Source: Bdellovibrionales bacterium
Lineage (GTDB): Bacteria; Bdellovibrionota; UBA1018; CAIMNF01
NCBI GenBank assembly: GCA_018266375.1
Contig: JAFEAO010000005.1
Span: 66,619 to 130,618 of the forward strand
Length of the DNA: 64,000 nt
Direction of reading: 5' to 3'
Shown here: positions 51,347-58,272 of the stretch, one piece after another
Layout: every line of letters starts with the position of its first letter
How positions within the stretch are numbered: position 1 is the stretch's first letter
Notes under the pieces: model-generated
Told to the model about the DNA's origin: nothing
What the model saw: the letters and a program-made list of their open reading frames with translations, nothing else
The model's database searches: none
Made by a program: the position numbers and the translations under genes

Positions 51347-51804
51347 GATTTTTCCTGTCCCATTCCCGCGTTACTAAAATTTTATAAAAAAGGGCCCGCA
51401 GATCTGAGATATGCGGGCCCAAGATGTCATTGTGACTTCTATCTAGGGGGTTGGGGGGTAAGATCGTCGCCACATGTATATATTCGGGCTCCCTCTCCCT
51501 AACTTTCCCCTTACAATTTTGTATTTAATTTTTTGGTCCGCTGATCCCGTTCTTCCTGGCCGGGAAGAACTACTCAGTTCACAAGTCCCGCCGATATCCC
51601 GCGTCAAACCTGTGCCTTACCTAGCGTGGGGGACCTGCACAATCGATTTCAATCTTTTCGTATTCGTTTTGAGGTAGCTGTTGCGCTGAGATGATGCTCA
51701 TTACGGCCTCCGTACTAATAGAATCTTATACTTGATGAATTTGATCAACTAAAAAGTTAAAACTTTTTGTTTATTTTTTTGTTCAATAAATTCAATATAT
51801 TATC

Positions 51805-52548
51805 ATGACTTCTTTGAGCATCATTCTGCCGGCCTACAACGAGGCAAAGCGGCTCCCCCGGACTTTTAGCCTGATTAAAAAGGCGATCAAACAAGGGGTC
51901 TTCGACCAGTGTGATCTTCAAGAGATCCTGGTCGTCGACGACGGCTCTAAAGACAACACCATCCAAGCTGCAGAGGCTGCAAAAACCGAGCTCCCTCAAA
52001 TCCGGGTGGTGCCCATTGTCCCAAACGCCGGCAAAGGAAACGCGATCCACACCGGACTTCGGGAGTCTCGCAGCGACTGGTGCCTCATCGCGGATGCCGA
52101 CAGCGCCACCCCGTGGGATCAATTCATGAAACTTTGGTGGGCGATTCAAAAAAGCAAAGAACCAACCCAGATCGCGATCGGATCACGCGACCTTCCGGAG
52201 AGCGAAATTCGCACTTCTCAATCTTGGCTCCGCGAACACATGGGGAAAACATTCAATTTATTTGTCCGGATAATTACGGGCCTGCCGTTTAAAGACACTC
52301 AGTGCGGTTTCAAACTCATCCATCGCGGATCGATTCAGCCGTTTATCTCACTCCTCATCGTAAAGCGCTTCGCTTGGGACGTGGAGTTCCTCATGTTCGC
52401 CCGCGTGTACAACTTGAATACCGTCGAGGTTGCCGTCGCATGGGAACACCAAGACGATAGCCGCGTGAGCAAGCTAAAAGACAGCGCCGAGATGTTACTT
52501 CGCGTGCTTCAAATGAGAATCCGACTTTTCTTTCTGAAATGGAAATAA
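51805..52548 (+). CDS. polyprenyl-phosphate sugar synthase-type GT2 glycosyltransferase (Dpm1/ArnC/GtrB-like)
   Basis: 247 aa. SIILPAYNEAKRL...VVDDGSKDNT...IADADSATP are the GT2 DxD/DAD motifs typical of dolichyl/undecaprenyl-phosphate sugar synthases. The 3' end overlaps the next gene by 10 nt. Confidence 0.85.
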   Translation: MTSLSIILPAYNEAKRLPRTFSLIKKAIKQGVFDQCDLQEILVVDDGSKDNTIQAAEAAKTELPQIRVVPIVPNAGKGNAIHTGLRESRSDWCLIADADSATPWDQFMKLWWAIQKSKEPTQIAIGSRDLPESEIRTSQSWLREHMGKTFNLFVRIITGLPFKDTQCGFKLIHRGSIQPFISLLIVKRFAWDVEFLMFARVYNLNTVEVAVAWEHQDDSRVSKLKDSAEMLLRVLQMRIRLFFLKWK

Positions 52549-55500
52549 ACAAACCAGATCGCGCTTTCCGGTTCGGAATCCTGTGCTGCGCACTTTTGTG
52601 TTTGTACATTCTGTTTTTCCTCCCGACCTTCGATCTCGACGAGTCGCTCTACCGTCGTGTCGCGGCCGAAATGAAGTTGCACGGAGACTATTGGCATCCC
52701 ACTTGGGATGCGCGCCCGCTCTTGCACAAGCCGCCGATCTTATACTGGATCATCGATTTTTTCAGTTCGGTCATCGATCGCACGCCCGACTACGTGAGCT
52801 CAGTCGCCGCACGCATGCCGGGATTTTTAATTTCAGTCGCGATGACGTTCGCTCTCGGGTGGCGGGCGTCAATGTACTTGTGGATGGGAGCATTCCCCCT
52901 CCTCACCGTTTGCTCGGTGATTTACGATCCGCTTCAAACGCTGGCGCTACTCCCTGCGCTATTGATTCCGGTGCGTTGGTTTCATGAAGATCGCGCAGGC
53001 ACGACTCGCGAGTACGCGTACGTCGCGCTCAGCATGTTCGCCGCCTGCGCGGTCAAAGGATTGAACGGACTCGTGCTACCTGCGCTTGCGGTCGGCGTGC
53101 AACTCCTCGTGCGCGGGGGACCCGAGATGTGGCGACGCGGGTTTGCGTTCAAGGTCAAATCGTTTTGGCCGGCGGTCGCACTCTCGGCCCTCTACTACTG
53201 GTGGCTCGATCAAAAGATGGGTCGGGCGTTTACCGAAGAGTTTTTTTTGGTCCAACACTTCGGGCGCTCACAGGCAGCGCAAGAGTCTCACGGCGGTGGA
53301 ATCCTGTACTACCCGCTCGTCGTATTCATCGGCGCGGGGATGATGCTTCCGTTTTTAATCTCAGCGATAAAATCCCTCGGCAACCTACCTCCGGAGGGTC
53401 CCACGTTACGCCAGACTTTCGCGCGCGTCGGATTCCCTCTTACCTACGCACTTTGTTTCATCGTTTTATTTAGTTTTTCGGCTACAAAACTTCCGCATTA
53501 CCTTTGGCCGATTTGGCCAGCTCTGGCGATTTTTATCGCCGGACGTGAAAGGAGTCCCATGGGTCGCATCGTTCTTATGATCTCATTGATCCCGATGTTT
53601 ATTTTTACGGCAACGTCGATCTTGCTCGCACTGAACCCGATCAGCTTACTGCATGACGTGATCGGATCACCGGCGTTTAAAGCCATTTTCCCGATCGACT
53701 ACTCGATGCCGCTTTCGAGCCGGGCGATGTTCGCGCTGGCAGCGATCATCGGCGCTTCGATCGTCGTCAGACGCCGCAAACTCGCTGAGACGCCTTCGAA
53801 GGCGTTCGGGCAATCGGCTCTCTTCTGCTTGCTGCTCGTCGGCGCCTTCGGACCGATCTTTATCGAACGCGTGCACAATCCGGCGATGGAAATCGCGAAA
53901 GACGTGAACTCACTCGATTACCCGCCGAACACGTGTATGTGGTACACGGGCCCGCACTCGGCAACTTTGAGTATCGCCCTCGGTAACAATATTCTCCACA
54001 ACCGCTGCGAACCACCCGACATGGCGATGATGATCGCACCGGATTGGAAAGTACAAGAGTGCGAAGAGCGCGGAATGAAAGTCGTGAGCCATCACGGTTA
54101 CTTGAACTTGTGCGTGAGCACGACCAAATCCGGAACTTGGGGCGCGAAAGCGTTCGAACCGGGTTTTGGCGGCGTAGGTGGCGCACCGATGGCGAATGCC
54201 AACCCAACAGGCACGGCTATCCTTCCGGGTGCTGACGGAATTCTTGGAACGGCCGACGACATCGTGGTTCAGAATCACGTTCAAGTCGGCGGCGAAGACG
54301 CGACGGATCCTCAGAGCGCAGCAATGCAAGAACTTGTCGTGACTCAGCTCGCGGGCATGGATAAAACTCCCAACACTCTCGACGACGTCGTGACTTACAC
54401 TTACGCCGGCCCGGACGGAAAGCTCGGTACCGAAGACGACGTTCCGGCTCCGCGCCTTGGCCGTCGCAAATCTAAATCGACCAAATCTGCTCAGTCCGCA
54501 GTCACTCACCTCGGGTTCGACAAGGCGGGCAACACCGAGACCATGGAGTTCGTCGGCGGCGACGGAGTCGAAGGCACTGCCGATGACGTCGTTGTGACCC
54601 GCGCTGCGGGTCCGGATGGAAAAACCGGAACGGCCGACGACGTGGTAGTCACGCAAATGGTGGGTGAAGACGGAATCGCCGGTACCAAAGACGACATCGA
54701 ACTTGTGCGAACCGTGGGCGACGACAAAATTCCGGGAAACGCCGACGACGTGGTTTCTTACGTGTACGCAGGTCCGGATAAAATTTTCGGAACCGAAGAC
54801 GACGTTCCGACCACTCCGTTGGCAAAAAAAGATCATAAAGCTTACTCCGACAAAGAATCGAAGAAAGTGAAGAGCACTCAGCTCGATCTCGGCGATGACC
54901 GCGAAGTCGTCATGACGTTTGCGGGTGAAGACGAAAAGTTCGGCACTTCGGACGACGTTGTGGTGATTAAAGACAAGAAAACGGGCAAGACGACCACTCA
55001 AGCGATCGGCGAAGACAAAACTCCCGGCACCGAAGACGACGTCTCGGTCACTCGCTTGGTTGGCGACGATGGAATCCCAGGAACAGAGGACGACGTCGTC
55101 GCATACAAATATGCGGGACCGGATAAGGCTTTCGACACCGGGGACGACGTTCCTGCGACTCCGCTAGGAATCGCGGCAACTTCGATTCCGGCTCCGGGTC
55201 GCGATCCGATCTTGGGTAATCTGAAAAATAATTCGCGCGGGATTCCACGCACTCGTTCTTCCAAAAAAGGAAAAGTCGTGCACATCGGGCTAAAAGACGG
55301 CCGCGAAGTCGTGATGACCTTTACCAGCGAAGACGAACACGGCAACGCGAAACCCGCTCCGGATGACGTTGCCGTTATCAAAGACAAGAGAGGCAAAGTC
55401 ACGAGACAAATGATCGGCGACGACTTAACTCCGGGAACGGCGGATGACGTCGTAGTCACAGAGTTCATCGGTAAAGACAAACTCGCTGGGTCTAAAGATC

Positions 55501-56189
55501 ACGTTCTCGTTGCGAAACGCGTGGGTCCGGATTTGCTTCCGGATACTGCCGATGACGAAGTGATCGACCTCGCCAAGGGCGGCATCCAATTCAAAGGCGG
55601 TAAACCTCTAGTCGAGGGCGAACAATCTACTGCAGGCGCAGTCACCGATACAAAGGGCGCGGTGAAAATGAAAGTAACCGACGCTAAAGGTGCCGCTACC
55701 GGAACGGGCGCATACGCGAAGAAGGCAGACGAGAAACCGCCAATTGCAAAAATGTTCCCGGTACCGCCAAAGAAACCGACTCCTCGCAAAGCGATCGTAA
55801 AGGTCGCAAAACCGGCCGCACCGAAGACTCCAAAAGAAAATCCAGCGAAGGTAAAGAAGATCGCGTTTGAGAAAAACGTAAAGGTGGTCGAACAGCAAGT
55901 TCTCGCAATGGACTTCTGCGAAGCTTATCTCTGCGACGATCAGTATAAATCCGAACGCGTCCTTGAGAACATCGAATCGTTTAACTACGACTACCAAGAG
56001 CCGCAGTATCGCGCGGTTCAGCTCAAAATGCTAAACGATTCGCTCATCAAAGCGATCGAGTACAAAAAGAACTGGCGCAAGTACACGCCCGAGTACGAAG
56101 TCGGATTGATGAGCCAAGAGCAAGTGGACGGGATCATGACTCCGCTCATTCAGCGCTTGCGCGACAACATCAAACTCCTGAAGAAGTAA
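52539..56189 (+). CDS. fusion protein: N-terminal ArnT/PMT-like GT-C membrane glycosyltransferase (about 500 aa) + about 600-aa Asp/Thr-rich tandem-repeat region + Lys/Pro-rich linker + C-terminal globular domain
   Basis: 1216 aa. The first loop, FDLDESLYRRVAAEMKLHGDYWHPTWDARPLLHKPPILYW, closely parallels the ArnT DE..YAEISREM...FEKPPLxYW signature. About 12 TM helices follow. From about aa 560 onward there are at least 15 copies of a 13-16-aa unit G-x-D-G-x-x-G-T-x-D-D-V-V-V-T (for example PGADGILGTADDIVV, AGPDGKTGTADDVVVT, VGDDGIPGTEDDVVAY). These are organised into three roughly 90-aa super-repeats that each begin REVVMTF-(A/T)-(G/S)-EDE. Then come AKP-rich spacers and a final roughly 110-aa domain containing two Cys. 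Confidence 0.78.
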   Translation: MEINKPDRAFRFGILCCALLCLYILFFLPTFDLDESLYRRVAAEMKLHGDYWHPTWDARPLLHKPPILYWIIDFFSSVIDRTPDYVSSVAARMPGFLISVAMTFALGWRASMYLWMGAFPLLTVCSVIYDPLQTLALLPALLIPVRWFHEDRAGTTREYAYVALSMFAACAVKGLNGLVLPALAVGVQLLVRGGPEMWRRGFAFKVKSFWPAVALSALYYWWLDQKMGRAFTEEFFLVQHFGRSQAAQESHGGGILYYPLVVFIGAGMMLPFLISAIKSLGNLPPEGPTLRQTFARVGFPLTYALCFIVLFSFSATKLPHYLWPIWPALAIFIAGRERSPMGRIVLMISLIPMFIFTATSILLALNPISLLHDVIGSPAFKAIFPIDYSMPLSSRAMFALAAIIGASIVVRRRKLAETPSKAFGQSALFCLLLVGAFGPIFIERVHNPAMEIAKDVNSLDYPPNTCMWYTGPHSATLSIALGNNILHNRCEPPDMAMMIAPDWKVQECEERGMKVVSHHGYLNLCVSTTKSGTWGAKAFEPGFGGVGGAPMANANPTGTAILPGADGILGTADDIVVQNHVQVGGEDATDPQSAAMQELVVTQLAGMDKTPNTLDDVVTYTYAGPDGKLGTEDDVPAPRLGRRKSKSTKSAQSAVTHLGFDKAGNTETMEFVGGDGVEGTADDVVVTRAAGPDGKTGTADDVVVTQMVGEDGIAGTKDDIELVRTVGDDKIPGNADDVVSYVYAGPDKIFGTEDDVPTTPLAKKDHKAYSDKESKKVKSTQLDLGDDREVVMTFAGEDEKFGTSDDVVVIKDKKTGKTTTQAIGEDKTPGTEDDVSVTRLVGDDGIPGTEDDVVAYKYAGPDKAFDTGDDVPATPLGIAATSIPAPGRDPILGNLKNNSRGIPRTRSSKKGKVVHIGLKDGREVVMTFTSEDEHGNAKPAPDDVAVIKDKRGKVTRQMIGDDLTPGTADDVVVTEFIGKDKLAGSKDHVLVAKRVGPDLLPDTADDEVIDLAKGGIQFKGGKPLVEGEQSTAGAVTDTKGAVKMKVTDAKGAATGTGAYAKKADEKPPIAKMFPVPPKKPTPRKAIVKVAKPAAPKTPKENPAKVKKIAFEKNVKVVEQQVLAMDFCEAYLCDDQYKSERVLENIESFNYDYQEPQYRAVQLKMLNDSLIKAIEYKKNWRKYTPEYEVGLMSQEQVDGIMTPLIQRLRDNIKLLKK

Positions 56190-56204
56190 ACTAGTACGTC
56201 CGAA

Positions 56205-56249
56205 CAAAACAAAACCCCCGGGCAATTTCGATGCCCGGGGGTTTTGTTT
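56205..56249. terminator. bidirectional rho-independent terminator between the GT-C fusion gene and the histone-fold gene
   Basis: A 10-bp perfect stem, cccccgggca-atttcga-tgcccggggg, flanked by AAAACAAAA on the 5' side and TTTTGTTTT on the 3' side. Confidence 0.72.
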
Positions 56250-56274
56250 TAAGACTTAAAATATTTCGCCAAGA

Positions 56275-56475
56275 TCAGCTAAAATCGCGGTCCATTACGG
56301 TTTTGCGTCCGTCGCGCTTAGCAGCTTCTACCGCTTGGTCGCAAAGATCGCGCACTTTGTCTGAAAGTACGTCGATGACTGCTGCTGAAGTGTTCATGCC
56401 TGACTTAGCACGAATGTAGTTCTTCAATTTAGAAGCGACGATCAAAACTTCTTTTTCTGCATTACCTTCTGTCAT
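56275..56475 (-). CDS. histone-fold DNA-binding protein (archaeal HMfB-like / Bdellovibrio HBb-like). Minimal 66-aa form; the in-frame ORF extends to 56835
   Basis: MTEGNAEKEVLIVASKLKNYIRAKSGMNTSAAVIDVLSDKVRDLCDQAVEAAKRDGRKTVMDRDFS aligns to the HMfB pattern (...RIIKNAGAERVSDDA...EIASEAVKLAKHAGRKTIKAEDI), including the diagnostic A-K-x-x-GRKT-[IV] motif. The ATG at 56475 has a GAAAGGGA RBS-like sequence upstream. The ORF is continuous for another 120 codons upstream (see findings). Confidence 0.6.
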   Translation of the reverse strand: MTEGNAEKEVLIVASKLKNYIRAKSGMNTSAAVIDVLSDKVRDLCDQAVEAAKRDGRKTVMDRDFS

Positions 56476-56869
56476 GGTGTAGTCCCTTTCTTCTTCTGAT
56501 TCTTGTTCTTCTGAACCTAAACCTGCAATAAATCTTTCCCGATCCGATACGACTTTTCGACTGGTTCCACTGCTGGCTGCCTTCTCGCGAGGTGACTCGG
56601 AGGTCGATGGTGCATCGTCTGCGGTGAGCTCTTTTGGAGCTCGGTTTTCTAACGCCCAGGATTCTCGATGGTTATACAACGGAACGTGGGCATCCCAACA
56701 CTCTACTGAGCAAAAAACCAGTCCAGTACGTTTTCGGTTACAGGTCGAAACATTACAGGTCCAATACACAGATTTCAAGTGAATCGGTTTCTTACATGAG
56801 GAGCAAAGCTTCCAAACGATCTGTGTGGTGTCCACACTCGAAATTCTTCAATGGTTTCAAATAAAAAGC

Positions 56870-56918
56870 GAGGACAAAAAAAATGGGCTGCAACCAAAGG
56901 GGGGTGAGGTTGCAGCCC
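56870..56918 (-). terminator. minus-strand stem-loop + U-tract (intrinsic-terminator-like) just upstream of the histone-fold ORF
   Basis: gggctgcaacc...ggttgcagccc forms an 11-bp stem with a 12-nt G-rich loop. On the minus strand it is followed by AUUUUUUUUGUCCUCGCUUUUUAU. Confidence 0.4.
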
Positions 56919-57182
56919 GAAAAATGCGCCTTTGTGAGGGGGTTAGGGGGATCGGCACACTTATACTCCCCATTAAAGCAATGCCCATGCCATTGCAACA
57001 CAATGGGTCATCATCCCTGTATTTTAAGCGTTTTTTGTCTGACCCCGACCCTTGTTTATTACATACCGCATGTATATTTTATTTACACTCGTATATTTTC
57101 TACCAAGATTATTTAATATCAGGGCTTTGGGCTCCGCTATAGGAGGGTCGGCGTGGCACTAATCTTGTAATAATCAGTACAT

Positions 57183-57698
57183 ATGAAAAAGTTTATTCCA
57201 TCGTGCCTCTTGATGACACTGTTAGTGACCGCTCTGAGCGGTTGCGGTGAACTACGCCCCGAAGCGGCCGCTACCTACGCGCGCGAACGCCAAGAGCAGG
57301 AAGATCGCCAGAACCCACCGAAGATCCCAACCCTCGTCGTCAATAACATCACTTACGATTCGACTGGCGCGACCGATCTTCGTTACTTGATCTCTTTTAA
57401 CTCGGGCGCGAAAACTTTCAGCTTTCAAGTCTCAAGAACCGCTTGGGGCCCGACTTCAAAAACGATTTCGGTTTCTCGCAGTAACATGCCTGCTCAATTC
57501 GATTTGCTCGTCAGCGTATTCGCCGGCAAAGTCGGCATTACGGTCGATACTCAATGTACTACCGACTGTCCGGTCAGCTCTGCCGAGCTACTCCGCAGCG
57601 ACACGGGCGTGAGTATGTCCACTCCAAATCCTTTCGTTGCAGACGGCAATGGGAATCTCTTCACTAATTTGAATCATTTTATTTTAAACCACCTGTAG
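57183..57698 (+). CDS. hypothetical lipoprotein
   Basis: 171 aa with lipobox ALSGCG. No recognised domain. Confidence 0.6.
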   Translation: MKKFIPSCLLMTLLVTALSGCGELRPEAAATYARERQEQEDRQNPPKIPTLVVNNITYDSTGATDLRYLISFNSGAKTFSFQVSRTAWGPTSKTISVSRSNMPAQFDLLVSVFAGKVGITVDTQCTTDCPVSSAELLRSDTGVSMSTPNPFVADGNGNLFTNLNHFILNHL

Positions 57699-58272
57699 TA
57701 ATTGCTTCGAAGACCCCGCTCCGGATCATCGAAACCGCGATGGCAGCAAGTAAGAGAGCTGCGATTTTAGAAATCACGACCGTTCCGTCTTTGCCGATCA
57801 CTCTCTGGATAACGGCGCTTCGGAGCAGGACGATCCATGCAAATACGTAGTTTACAATCAATGCCGCAAGCGTGATCGGGTATCCCGTCGCATCGACTTG
57901 AATCATCAGTGCGGTCAATACCGCGGGGCCCGTGATGAGCGGTACTGCAAGCGGCACTACTCCGGTCGAGCCCGACACCTTCTGCTTGTTTTCCTGACCG
58001 CCCAAGAGGTCGGCAAGCGAGATCAGAAGGAGCACTAGCCCACCCGCCATTTTGAAATCAAAGAGCTGAATCCCGAGATAACGGAACAGCGCGCGTCCGC
58101 CGACCATGAAAACTACGGCGACAACGAGGGCAACGAGCATGGATTGGTTGACGACCTTGCGGCGCTGATCCTCGGGAAGATCGCGGGTCATGCCCAGATA
58201 CACCGGTAGCGTACCGATAATGTCTAATGCTACAAACACCGCGGTAAAGGTCAGTAGGAAATTTTGGAACAT
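57679..58272 (-). CDS. MarC-family (UPF0056) integral membrane protein
   Basis: 197 aa with 6 TMs. The N-terminus FLLTFTAVFVALDIIGTLPVYL is typical of MarC. Confidence 0.8.
   Translation of the reverse strand: MFQNFLLTFTAVFVALDIIGTLPVYLGMTRDLPEDQRRKVVNQSMLVALVVAVVFMVGGRALFRYLGIQLFDFKMAGGLVLLLISLADLLGGQENKQKVSGSTGVVPLAVPLITGPAVLTALMIQVDATGYPITLAALIVNYVFAWIVLLRSAVIQRVIGKDGTVVISKIAALLLAAIAVSMIRSGVFEAITTGGLK

What the first reader, a model, noticed from the sequence alone, without database searches (positions are those of the whole stretch)
56275..56835. Histone-fold protein gene whose ORF carries a possible FCS/TRASH-like zinc-ribbon and acidic-linker N-terminal extension
The C-terminal 66 aa match the archaeal HMfB histone fold, including the A-K-x-x-GRKTV-x-x-x-D signature. 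The bacterial histone HBb (Bd0055) of Bdellovibrio bacteriovorus is of this type. The reading frame stays open for 120 further codons upstream. This is unlikely by chance at about 50% GC. That extension encodes MDTTQIVWKLCSSCKKPIHLKSVYWTCNVSTCNRKRTGLVFCSVECWDAHVPLY. It contains a CxxC...CxxxxC...FCSxxC...H arrangement reminiscent of FCS/MYM/TRASH zinc fingers. A Ser/Glu-rich acidic linker (GSEEQESEEERD) follows. If translated as one protein, it would be a zinc finger-acidic linker-histone architecture. That resembles eukaryotic chromatin proteins and is not described for the short bacterial histone.
Basis: partly seen in the sequence, partly recalled or inferred. Interest (0 to 1): 0.8.

Follow-up and report, generated by a model that had tools for sequence, protein, structure and literature searches.

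The report
ZZ-type zinc-finger bacterial histone gene
The ORF is a real, widely conserved fusion of a two-zinc "ZZ-type" finger to an HBb-like bacterial histone, a family already described in 2024 as "ZZ histones"; the new point is comparative evidence that this clade may also make a short histone-only product from an internal ribosome-binding site.

Summary
Window 56275..56835 (-) is one 186-aa ORF with a GTG start: a Cys/His-rich module (res 8-67), a disordered acidic linker (68-120) and an HBb-like histone fold (121-186).

The extension is not incidental 5'-UTR. All 160 related loci keep both parts in one frame. Eight zinc ligands (C11 C14 C27 C32 C42 C46 H50 H56) are invariant.

The architecture is not undescribed. 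It is the "ZZ histone" family of Schwab et al. 2024, to which I infer Bd3044 of B. bacteriovorus belongs. At least 578 species genomes of Bdellovibrionota and Myxococcota carry it. The finger is a two-zinc cross-brace module whose best, though weak, fold matches are ZZ domains. It is not a single-zinc FCS/TRASH finger, although it contains an FCS motif.

Most likely it is a low-abundance nucleoid protein. It would dimerise and bind the DNA backbone like HBb, and carry two tethered ZZ modules.

Two things appear new.
- A Shine-Dalgarno motif sits 6-10 nt before Met121 in about 12 independent lineages. The Arg codon there is AGG in 15/15 genes against 5% elsewhere. This predicts an additional 66-aa histone-only isoform.
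- A sigma-54 promoter drives an 87-nt C-rich terminated RNA directly upstream in all 21 close relatives.

Verdict: new member of a known kind, with modest interest.

The parts
56275..56835 (-). Complete ZZ-histone ORF: 186 codons plus a TGA stop at 56275..56277
   Evidence: Identical to NCBI JST80_06575. 3918 homologues at E<=1e-3.
56833..56835 (-). GTG start codon of the long product, with no Shine-Dalgarno motif upstream (duplex dG -1.0 kcal/mol)
   Evidence: An in-frame TGA lies 5 codons upstream, and the next possible start lies after the first CxxC. The homologous GTG/TTG-GAA start is present in 19 close relatives.
56635..56814 (-). Zn module, residues 8-67. Ligands are C11 C14 C42 C46 (site 1) and C27 C32 H50 H56 (site 2). 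The site assignment is by analogy with the published one.
   Evidence: Ligands invariant. pLDDT 80-96 in the full-length model. Best fold matches are ZZ domains. Ligand numbering of a Haliangium orthologue matches published D0LYE7.
56476..56634 (-). Variable linker, residues 68-120, predicted disordered and acidic at its C-terminal end (SEEQESEEERD)
   Evidence: pLDDT 40-62. Length and composition vary among homologues.
56483..56488 (-). Internal Shine-Dalgarno-like AAGGGA, 7 nt upstream of the Met121 ATG
56473..56475 (-). Internal ATG (Met121), the predicted start of a 66-aa histone-only isoform
   Evidence: Met invariant in the close clade. SD+ATG recurs in about 12 lineages.
56278..56475 (-). 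HBb-like histone fold with a truncated alpha3, residues 121-186
   Evidence: HBb DNA-contact residues are conserved (mapped).
56206..56250 (.). Bidirectional hairpin terminator shared with the convergent 1216-aa ORF
   Evidence: Sequence. The weak Rfam 'His_leader' and 'ohsC' hits here are hairpin/T-run artefacts.
56977..56992 (-). Sigma-54 type promoter TGGCAT-N5-TTGCT
   Evidence: Only match in the 64 kb window, 0.08 expected. The GG/GC elements are invariant in 16 loci.
56876..56962 (-). 87-nt C-rich RNA. A 5-bp stem (9 bp in the single-sequence fold) closes a loop containing CCCCCUAACCCCCUCAC. A U-tract follows, then a terminator hairpin with a CCCCCC loop and a U8 tail.
   Evidence: MFE -33.5 kcal/mol, z = -7.8. 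6 covarying pairs. Covariance-model hits directly upstream of the gene in all close-clade loci. No Rfam family.
56855..56860 (-). Conserved TTGAAA box between the RNA terminator and the GTG start. It is a possible -35 element. Spacing in this window (19 nt to GTG) differs from most relatives (32-34 nt).

Best explanation
The ORF encodes a ZZ histone as defined by Schwab et al. 2024. It is one polypeptide with three parts: a small N-terminal module that binds two zinc ions in cross-brace fashion, a flexible non-conserved linker, and an HBb-type bacterial histone fold with a truncated alpha3 helix. Shown here: the fusion is conserved and under purifying selection, the eight ligands are invariant, and the histone fold is 58% identical to HBb and keeps its DNA-contact residues. 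Inferred: the protein dimerises through the histone fold exactly as HBb does. It then binds the DNA backbone non-specifically in the minor groove and bends DNA. Each dimer carries two ZZ modules on roughly 50-residue tethers. These would act as an interaction module, binding a protein ligand or possibly nucleic acid through the invariant basic N33-R34-K35-R36 loop. The result would be a low-abundance, specialised nucleoid adaptor rather than the bulk chromatin protein. In this Bdellovibrionales clade the long product starts at a GTG without a Shine-Dalgarno motif. A conserved Shine-Dalgarno + ATG at Met121 probably also yields a 66-aa histone-only product. That product could form homodimers, or heterodimers with the long form.
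For: - ORF and identity to a deposited protein.
- Conservation: 3918 homologues, mostly full length. At least 578 species genomes in Bdellovibrionota and Myxococcota. 160/160 loci have both parts in one frame with intact ligand spacing.
- Ligands: eight invariant ligands. Their numbering in a Haliangium orthologue (C20 C23 C36 C41 C51 C55 H59 H65) equals that published for the type ZZ histone D0LYE7, except C53 versus C55.
- Histone fold: HBb at E 6e-14 and TM 0.82-0.88. HBb contact residues S9 K10 K12 K16 N22 S24 K52 T53 R57 and the R51/D58 clamp (PMC11317129) map to S135 K136 K138 R142 N148 S150 K178 T179 R183 and R177/D184.
- Dimerisation: ZZ histones are predicted to dimerise through the same interface as HBb, without the N-terminal domain (supplement of PMC11390915).
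- Abundance: low expression and abundance of the B. bacteriovorus ZZ histone/Bd3044.
- Module distribution: the Zn module is found essentially only fused to histone folds. There are 299 clusters at 50% identity in 1.84 billion proteins. Apparent exceptions break inside helix 1 and look like chimeras or frameshifts.
- Internal start.
Against: - No Pfam ZZ (PF00569) hit for any of 45 members, even at E<=1.
- hhalign against a p62 ZZ sequence found nothing.
- The ligand-binding pocket of eukaryotic ZZ domains is reported not to be conserved, so the function of the module is unknown.
- Zinc binding, DNA binding and dimerisation are untested for any ZZ histone.
- The promoter of the long form is not identifiable in this window.
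Confidence: 0.85

Rival explanations
1. Dual-product gene. Besides the 186-aa ZZ histone, ribosomes initiate at the internal SD+ATG (Met121) and make a 66-aa HBb-like histone. The ratio of the two products sets how many ZZ modules each dimer carries. This extends the best explanation rather than excluding it.
For: 34 of 160 loci have a Met within 20 residues before the fold. 32 of those 34 have an SD duplex of <= -5.0 kcal/mol placed 6-10 nt upstream, against about 20% of control positions. 41% reach <= -7.5, against 4-5% of controls. These loci fall into about 12 lineages with unrelated linker peptides, including Polyangiaceae with AAGGAG-N6-ATG. In the close clade the Arg codon in the SD is AGG in 15/15 genes, against 10/212 Arg codons elsewhere in the same genes. 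The other four genes have AAG-GAG there instead. Met121 is invariant in the clade. The long form's own start is a GTG with no SD.
Against: There is no experimental evidence. The acidic, purine-rich linker raises the background of SD-like strings. The motif could be a decaying relic of the gene fusion or a translational pause site. Most Myxococcota and Bdellovibrio-proper relatives lack the Met. Lineage counts were made by eye, not from a tree.
Confidence: 0.5
2. Only the short 66-aa histone is made, and the upstream 120 codons are incidental 5'-UTR.
For: A good SD+ATG lies at Met121, whereas the upstream start is a GTG without an SD.
Against: The upstream part is the best-conserved region of the protein. 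It has 13 invariant and 14 nearly invariant columns across roughly 50%-identical sequences, while synonymous sites are scrambled (mean majority-codon fraction 0.62). There are no stops in 160/160 loci. The domain model is confident. Most relatives have no internal Met at all.
Confidence: 0.02
3. The N-terminal module is a single-zinc FCS/MYM/TRASH-type finger or a MYND finger, rather than ZZ-type.
Confidence: 0.1
4. The sigma-54-driven C-rich RNA upstream is a cis-acting leader or attenuator of the ZZ-histone mRNA, not an independent sRNA. Expression of the gene would then depend on terminator read-through.
For: The RNA sits immediately upstream, on the same strand, in all 21 close-clade loci, while the genes further upstream vary. 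In this window and in L161 no convincing promoter lies between the terminator and the GTG.
Against: The terminator is strong: an 11-bp GC-rich stem plus U8. Most relatives have a conserved TTGAAA-N17-(A2/T6 hexamer)-N9-GTG arrangement between terminator and start, which suggests a separate promoter. The element is absent from all more distant ZZ-histone loci.
Confidence: 0.25

Closest known systems
ZZ histones (Schwab et al. 2024, Nat Commun 15:7950; type example D0LYE7 of Haliangium ochraceum; I infer Bd3044 is the B. bacteriovorus HD100 member)
   Same: [quoted passage not shown] The ligand positions and the phyla are the same.
   Different: This clade has an acidic linker, a GTG start without an SD, an internal SD+ATG before the fold, and a sigma-54 RNA gene upstream. 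I found none of these in the passages I read of the papers I searched. The published ligand list gives C53 where all sequences here have the equivalent of C55.
HBb / Bd0055, the bacterial dimer histone (PDB 8cmp, 8fvx, 9ezz, 9f0e)
   Same: The C-terminal 58 residues are 58% identical with the same fold (TM 0.82-0.88). The RD clamp and 9 of the 10 main DNA-contact residues are kept.
   Different: HBb is a 60-odd-residue singlet that is abundant and probably essential. This protein carries 120 extra N-terminal residues, and its Bdellovibrio counterpart is scarce.
Eukaryotic ZZ domains (p62/SQSTM1, ZZZ3, HERC2, p300/CBP, RSC8, Ada2)
   Same: Small cross-brace module binding two zinc ions. These are the best fold matches.
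   Different: No sequence-level relationship is detectable. The third ligand pair is CxxxC, not CxxC. The peptide-binding pocket is reported not to be conserved. A basic NRKR loop is invariant here.
FCS / MYM / TRASH and MYND zinc fingers
   Same: FCS motif and a CxxC...FCSxxC outline. Weak Pfam and fold hits.
   Different: FCS/TRASH fingers bind one zinc through four ligands. MYND ends in Cys and is C4-C2HC. All hits are below their thresholds.
Bacterial genes with in-frame internal initiation giving two isoforms (IF2 alpha/beta, ClpB 93/79, CheA L/S; from general knowledge)
   Same: An in-frame SD+ATG inside an ORF, upstream of an autonomously folding C-terminal domain.
   Different: Nothing has been tested experimentally here. 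The inference rests on comparative sequence data only.

Membership tests
ZZ histone (Schwab et al. 2024) | N-terminal domain with a C4 site and a C2H2 site at conserved positions | tested here: met
   C11 C14 C27 C32 C42 C46 H50 H56 are invariant in 45 sequences and in 160/160 loci. The Haliangium orthologue numbering matches the published D0LYE7 ligands for 7 of 8. The eighth is C55 rather than the printed C53.
ZZ histone (Schwab et al. 2024) | C-terminal bacterial-dimer-like histone fold with truncated alpha3 and the RxTxxxxD motif | tested here: met
   HBb hits at E 6e-14. TM 0.82-0.88 at 58% identity. Helices 126-145 and 151-175 plus a one-turn alpha3 at 182-184. R177/T179/D184 present.
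ZZ histone (Schwab et al. 2024) | Both domains in one polypeptide joined by a disordered linker | tested here: met
   Single frame in 160/160 loci. Linker pLDDT 40-62.
ZZ histone (Schwab et al. 2024) | Actual binding of two zinc ions; dimerisation; DNA binding | not testable with these tools
   Needs metal analysis, SEC-MALS and EMSA. I found no ZZ histone reported as characterised biochemically.
ZZ domain (Pfam PF00569 / eukaryotic ZZ) | Match to the family profile | tested here: not met
   No PF00569 hit for the window protein at E<=10 or for any of 45 members at E<=1. A profile of the module finds only 299 clusters, and the best 150 that were listed and inspected are essentially all histone fusions. 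hhalign against p62 ZZ found nothing.
ZZ domain (Pfam PF00569 / eukaryotic ZZ) | Cross-brace two-zinc fold superposable on solved ZZ domains | tested here: inconclusive
FCS / MYM / TRASH zinc finger | Single C2-C2 zinc site with an FCS motif; match to zf-FCS, zf-FLZ or TRASH profiles | tested here: not met
MYND zinc finger | C4-C2HC ligand set; fold match | tested here: not met
   The last ligand is His56, not Cys. Foldseek E >= 0.9 to MYND domains. No Pfam zf-MYND hit.
HBb-type bacterial dimer histone (singlet) | Stand-alone histone-fold protein of about 60-70 aa | tested here: not met
   The ORF is 186 aa. Only the hypothetical internal-start product (residues 121-186) would meet this feature.
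Sigma-54-dependent promoter (for the upstream RNA) | GG-N10-GC elements (TGGCAC-N5-TTGCW) upstream of the transcript | tested here: met
   TGGCATGGGCATTGCT at 56992..56977. It is the only match in the window, with 0.08 expected. T1 G2 G3 C4 A5 and T12 T13 G14 C15 are invariant in 16 loci. Dependence on RpoN and on an activator was not testable.

The most novel reading that the evidence does not exclude
In this Bdellovibrionales clade, and in about ten other scattered lineages, the ZZ-histone gene is a two-product gene. A weakly initiated GTG start with no SD, possibly on a leaderless mRNA, gives the long ZZ-tagged histone. A selected internal Shine-Dalgarno + ATG gives a 66-aa HBb-like histone. 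The cell would then make mixed dimers carrying 0, 1 or 2 ZZ modules from one locus. The locus is also physically coupled to a previously undescribed sigma-54-dependent, C-rich small RNA that may tie histone expression to an enhancer-binding-protein signal.
Probability: 0.4. Interest if true: 0.6.

Novelty: new member of a known kind. Interest (0 to 1): 0.35.

Why it matters
As reported, the finding re-discovers a published family, so it does not change what is known.

The extra observations are what could matter.
- No ZZ histone has a known function.
- According to Schwab et al., half of the organisms with a ZZ histone have no other histone.
- If the gene also supplies a short HBb-like histone by internal initiation, such organisms might still have a bulk histone. 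The ZZ form would then be a sub-stoichiometric, tagged variant of the same dimer, a simple bacterial analogue of a histone variant.
- The conserved sigma-54 RNA gives a concrete regulatory lead.

Both ideas can be tested directly with standard experiments.

Tried and rejected
- **Rfam scan of 55500..58000.** Only sub-threshold hits (His_leader, ohsC, sbrA and others), all on the two terminator hairpins. Rejected as hairpin/T-run artefacts.
- **Consensus promoter/terminator scan.** Found nothing useful near the gene. It missed both real hairpins because their loops exceed 8 nt.
- **PDB sequence search with the Zn-module profile.** Only chance-level hits. MYM5 TRASH scored E 0.94.
- **afdb50 fold search.** Intended to recover D0LYE7 and Bd3044 directly, but the library was unavailable. 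Membership was tied to the literature through ligand numbering in a Haliangium MAG orthologue instead.
- **Other architectures for the Zn module.** The 15 long representatives without a histone hit mostly break inside helix alpha1 (for example 'VLVVVSKLKAEGLSILL...') or turn into low-complexity sequence. I read these as assembly chimeras or frameshifts.
- **Pairing of the upstream C-rich RNA with the internal SD region.** Only 5-6 nt of complementarity by eye (AAAGGG/CCCUUU). Not pursued and not claimed.
- **A near-leaderless sigma-70 promoter (TTGAAA-N17-hexamer-N9-GTG).** This fits 14-17 of 19 relatives. It does not fit this window or its closest relative L161, where TTGAAA lies 19 nt from the GTG. 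It is therefore not asserted for this locus.
- **Second histone gene in the window.** None found by tblastn. Whether the genome has a separate HBb gene could not be checked.
- **Neighbouring genes.** MarC, GAF-GGDEF, a 171-aa ORF and a 1216-aa ORF give no functional link.
Full report
**1. The observation**

Window 56275..56835 on the minus strand is a single ORF of 186 codons.
- It starts at a GTG. An in-frame TGA lies five codons upstream of that GTG, and no alternative start lies before the first CxxC.
It is identical to a deposited MAG protein, JST80_06575 from a Bdellovibrionales bacterium, on a 675-kb contig.
- Met121 (ATG 56475..56473) begins the 66-residue histone part.
- At the window's 50.5% GC, 120 stop-free codons have a chance probability of 0.0038.

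**2. The C-terminal part is an HBb-type histone fold**

- Residues 128-185 match the solved B. bacteriovorus histone HBb/Bd0055 (8cmp, 8fvx, 9ezz) at E about 6e-14.
- An AlphaFold2 model built on 45 homologues gives two long helices and a one-turn alpha3.
- That model superposes on HBb at 58% identity, TM 0.82-0.88 and rmsd 1.4-1.9 A.
- Hu et al. 2024 (PMC11317129) list the main HBb DNA-contact residues as N22, R57, S9, T53, T8, S24, K10, K12, K52 and K16, plus the R51-D58 clamp.
- With the +126 offset of the alignment these become N148, R183, S135, T179, A134, S150, K136, K138, K178, R142 and R177-D184. Only T8 is replaced.
- Non-specific binding of the DNA backbone by a dimer is therefore a well-grounded inference. 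It was not tested.

**3. The upstream 120 codons are coding**

- A search of 5.8 billion proteins found 3918 homologues. The great majority cover 96-100% of the query at 45-85% identity.
- In an alignment of 45 diverse members, C11, C14, C27, C32, C42, C46, H50 and H56 are invariant. So are V29-S30-T31, F41 and P67. W8, K15, N33, R34, R36, W47 and others are nearly invariant.
They are named Bdellovibrionales, Oligoflexia, Bacteriovoracaceae, Pseudobdellovibrionaceae, Polyangiaceae, Haliangium, Kofleriaceae, Nannocystaceae, Sandaracinaceae and Binatia.
- In all 160 fetched loci that carry the pattern, the spacing C-x2-C-x(10-14)-C-x4-C-x(8-10)-C-x3-C-x3-H-x5-H is intact. In all of them the histone fold follows in the same uninterrupted frame.
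- Synonymous sites in the close clade are scrambled, with a mean majority-codon fraction of 0.62. The amino-acid conservation therefore reflects selection on the protein.

**4. What the N-terminal module is**

- *Sequence.* Neither the window protein nor any of 45 relatives matches Pfam ZZ. The only hits are sub-threshold: zf-FLZ (FCS-type) in 18/45 and zf-FCS in 5/45.
- *Reach of the profile.* A profile of the module run against 1.84 billion representative proteins finds only 299 clusters. It does not reach eukaryotic zinc fingers.
- *Architecture.* Among the best 150 clusters, essentially all complete sequences carry a histone fold. Seven of 67 carry two histone folds. The apparent exceptions break inside helix alpha1 and look like chimeras or frameshifts.
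- *Structure.* The module is confidently predicted in the full-length model (pLDDT 80-96).
- *Foldseek* puts three p62 ZZ structures first (E 0.05-0.15, TM 0.57-0.63), followed by MYND and other ZZ domains.
- *Conclusion.* Eight ligands in the order 1-1-2-2-1-1-2-2, with a His-His last pair, fit a cross-brace two-zinc ZZ-type module. They do not fit a four-ligand FCS/TRASH finger. The FCS motif is real, but it is only the third ligand pair.

**5. It is a known family**

- Schwab et al. 2024 (PMC11390915) define "ZZ histones". These have an N-terminal ZZ-type finger with a C4 and a C2H2 site and a C-terminal histone domain like that of bacterial dimers.
- They report the family as closely related to HBb-type histones and found mostly in (then) Proteobacteria.
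- Their type example, D0LYE7 of Haliangium ochraceum, has ligands C20, C23, C51, C53 and C36, C41, H59, H65.
- A Haliangium MAG orthologue fetched here has C20, C23, C36, C41, C51, C55, H59 and H65. Seven of eight numbers are identical. The printed C53 is probably a slip for C55, since every sequence here has CxxxC.
- Their supplement predicts dimerisation through the HBb interface, with the N-terminal domain not involved.
- They report very low transcript and protein levels for the B. bacteriovorus ZZ histone. They also report that the eukaryotic ZZ binding-pocket residues are not conserved.
- Hocher et al. 2023 (PMC10627809) describe Bd3044 as the longer, less conserved and scarcer second histone-fold protein. 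It is present in 37% of Bdellovibrionota genomes and cannot substitute for Bd0055. Since HD100 encodes only these two histones, I take Bd3044 to be its ZZ histone; I did not align its sequence.
- A 2025 preprint reports that bd3044 and bd0055 transcripts both peak late in the growth phase.
- The claim that the architecture is undescribed is therefore wrong. The right comparator is Bd3044, not Bd0055.

**6. Internal ribosome-binding site (apparently new)**

*This locus and its close clade*
- In this window AAGGGA (56488..56483) lies 7 nt upstream of the Met121 ATG. The GTG start of the long form has no SD (duplex dG -1.0 kcal/mol).
- In the close clade of 19 distinct genes, Met121 is invariant.
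- The Arg codon inside the motif is AGG in 15/15 genes, against 10 of 212 Arg codons elsewhere in the same genes (Fisher p 3e-17, not corrected for relatedness). The four genes with Lys at that position read GAA-AAG-GAG, which regenerates AAGGAG.

*Across all 160 loci*
- 34 loci have a Met within 20 residues before the fold.
- 32 of those have an SD duplex of <= -5.0 kcal/mol, against 17-23% of four kinds of control position. 41% reach <= -7.5, against 4-6% of controls.
- These loci fall into about 12 groups with unrelated linker peptides. Examples are CCGGAGG-N8-ATG, AAAGGAG-N6-ATG, CAGGAGG-N6-ATG and, in Polyangiaceae, AAGGAG-N6-ATG.

*Reading*
- This is what selection for an internal initiation site looks like. 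It predicts a 66-aa histone-only product in addition to the long form. I put this at about 0.5.
- The alternatives are a relic of the ancestral fusion or a pause site. Most Myxococcota and Bdellovibrio-proper relatives lack the Met.

**7. Surroundings**

- The gene is monocistronic.
- Downstream, a bidirectional hairpin (56206..56250) separates it from a convergent 1216-aa ORF with no Pfam match.
- Upstream lie a 171-aa ORF on the other strand, a MarC-family gene and a GAF-GGDEF cyclase. None suggests a functional link.

*The upstream RNA*
- Immediately upstream, on the same strand, is a textbook sigma-54 promoter: TGGCATGGGCATTGCT at 56992..56977. It is the only match in 64 kb, with 0.08 expected.
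- An 87-nt RNA follows at 56962..56876. Its parts are:
  - a short stem closing a loop with two C-runs (CCCCCUAACCCCCUCAC);
  - a U-tract;
  - a terminator hairpin with a CCCCCC loop and U8.
- Its MFE is -33.5 kcal/mol, z = -7.8.
- In 16 distinct loci the promoter elements and the C-runs are invariant. The terminator stem varies by compensatory changes at six pairs.
- A covariance model finds the RNA directly upstream of the ZZ-histone gene in every close-clade locus with enough sequence, including three cut by contig ends. By eye it is also there in the closest relative, L161. The model finds it in none of the distant loci.
- Rfam 15 has no matching family.

*Between the terminator and the start*
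- Most relatives carry TTGAAA-N17-(hexamer with A2 and T6)-N9-GTG here. This suggests a separate promoter whose transcript would be nearly leaderless.
- In this window and in L161 the spacing is different, and no promoter can be assigned.
- A weaker, related C-rich element lies at 51383..51475 (-) and is syntenic in relatives. It was not followed up.

**8. Verdict**

- The finding is real and correctly read as a zinc finger - linker - histone fusion.
- It belongs to a family published in 2024, so the finding as reported has low novelty.
- The function of the ZZ module remains unknown here and in the literature.
- My committed mechanism is a low-abundance HBb-like dimer that binds and bends DNA and presents two tethered two-zinc modules as an interaction surface.
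- The internal ribosome-binding site and the sigma-54 RNA are new, testable leads. They raise the interest somewhat above that of a plain re-identification.

Noticed in passing
window 56876..56992 (-): Sigma-54 promoter (TGGCAT-N5-TTGCT) driving an 87-nt C-rich RNA. The RNA has two hairpins and a U8 terminator. It is conserved with covarying stems directly upstream of the ZZ-histone gene in all 21 close-clade loci, is absent from distant clades, and has no Rfam family. It is a candidate new sRNA, or possibly a leader.
   Followed up: yes
window 51383..51475 (-); also L004:7784-7862, L003:7804-7882, L006:7067-7148, L001:3829-3912, L007:7428-7487: A second conserved RNA-like element with a CCCC(AA)CCCCCC motif, a G-rich 5' segment and a terminator. 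It lies 3-5 kb downstream on the same strand and is syntenic in relatives. It gives weak hits (19-24 bits) to the covariance model of the first RNA.
   Followed up: partly
window 56836..56875 (-) and relatives: A conserved TTGAAA box lies between the RNA terminator and the start codon. In 14-17 of 19 relatives it is 32-34 nt from a GTG/TTG start, with an A2/T6 hexamer at 17-18 nt. This suggests a nearly leaderless GUG-start mRNA. This window and L161 deviate, with 19 nt.
   Followed up: partly
P0048, P0079, P0086, P0112; also P0143, P0178, P0186, P0214, P0237, P0247: Variants with one ZZ module followed by two histone folds in tandem (249-274 aa), found in Myxococcota-type sequences. They would form an intramolecular pseudo-dimer carrying a single ZZ module.
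   Followed up: no
window 56518..56556 (-), residues 94-106: A clade-specific linker motif, K..S[DE]RE[KR]F[IV].G[LI], with a weakly predicted helix at 98-104. It is conserved in long-linker relatives and missing in short-linker ones (145-152 aa).
   Followed up: no
window 52539..56189 (+): Convergent 1216-aa ORF with a multi-pass hydrophobic N-terminal third and dozens of Asp-rich 'GxDGxxGTxDDV'-like repeats. No Pfam hit at E<=1e-3.
   Followed up: no
PMC11390915, Fig. 4 legend: The published ligand list for the ZZ histone D0LYE7 gives C53 (profile position C43). Every sequence examined here, including a Haliangium orthologue with otherwise identical numbering, has the ligand at the equivalent of C55 (CxxxC). 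This is probably a misprint or a different assignment.
   Followed up: partly
L029 (CAMBZJ010000041.1): A contig labelled 'MAG: Klebsiella pneumoniae' carries a ZZ-histone gene of Bdellovibrionota/Myxococcota type. This is probably a mis-binned or mislabelled MAG.
   Followed up: no
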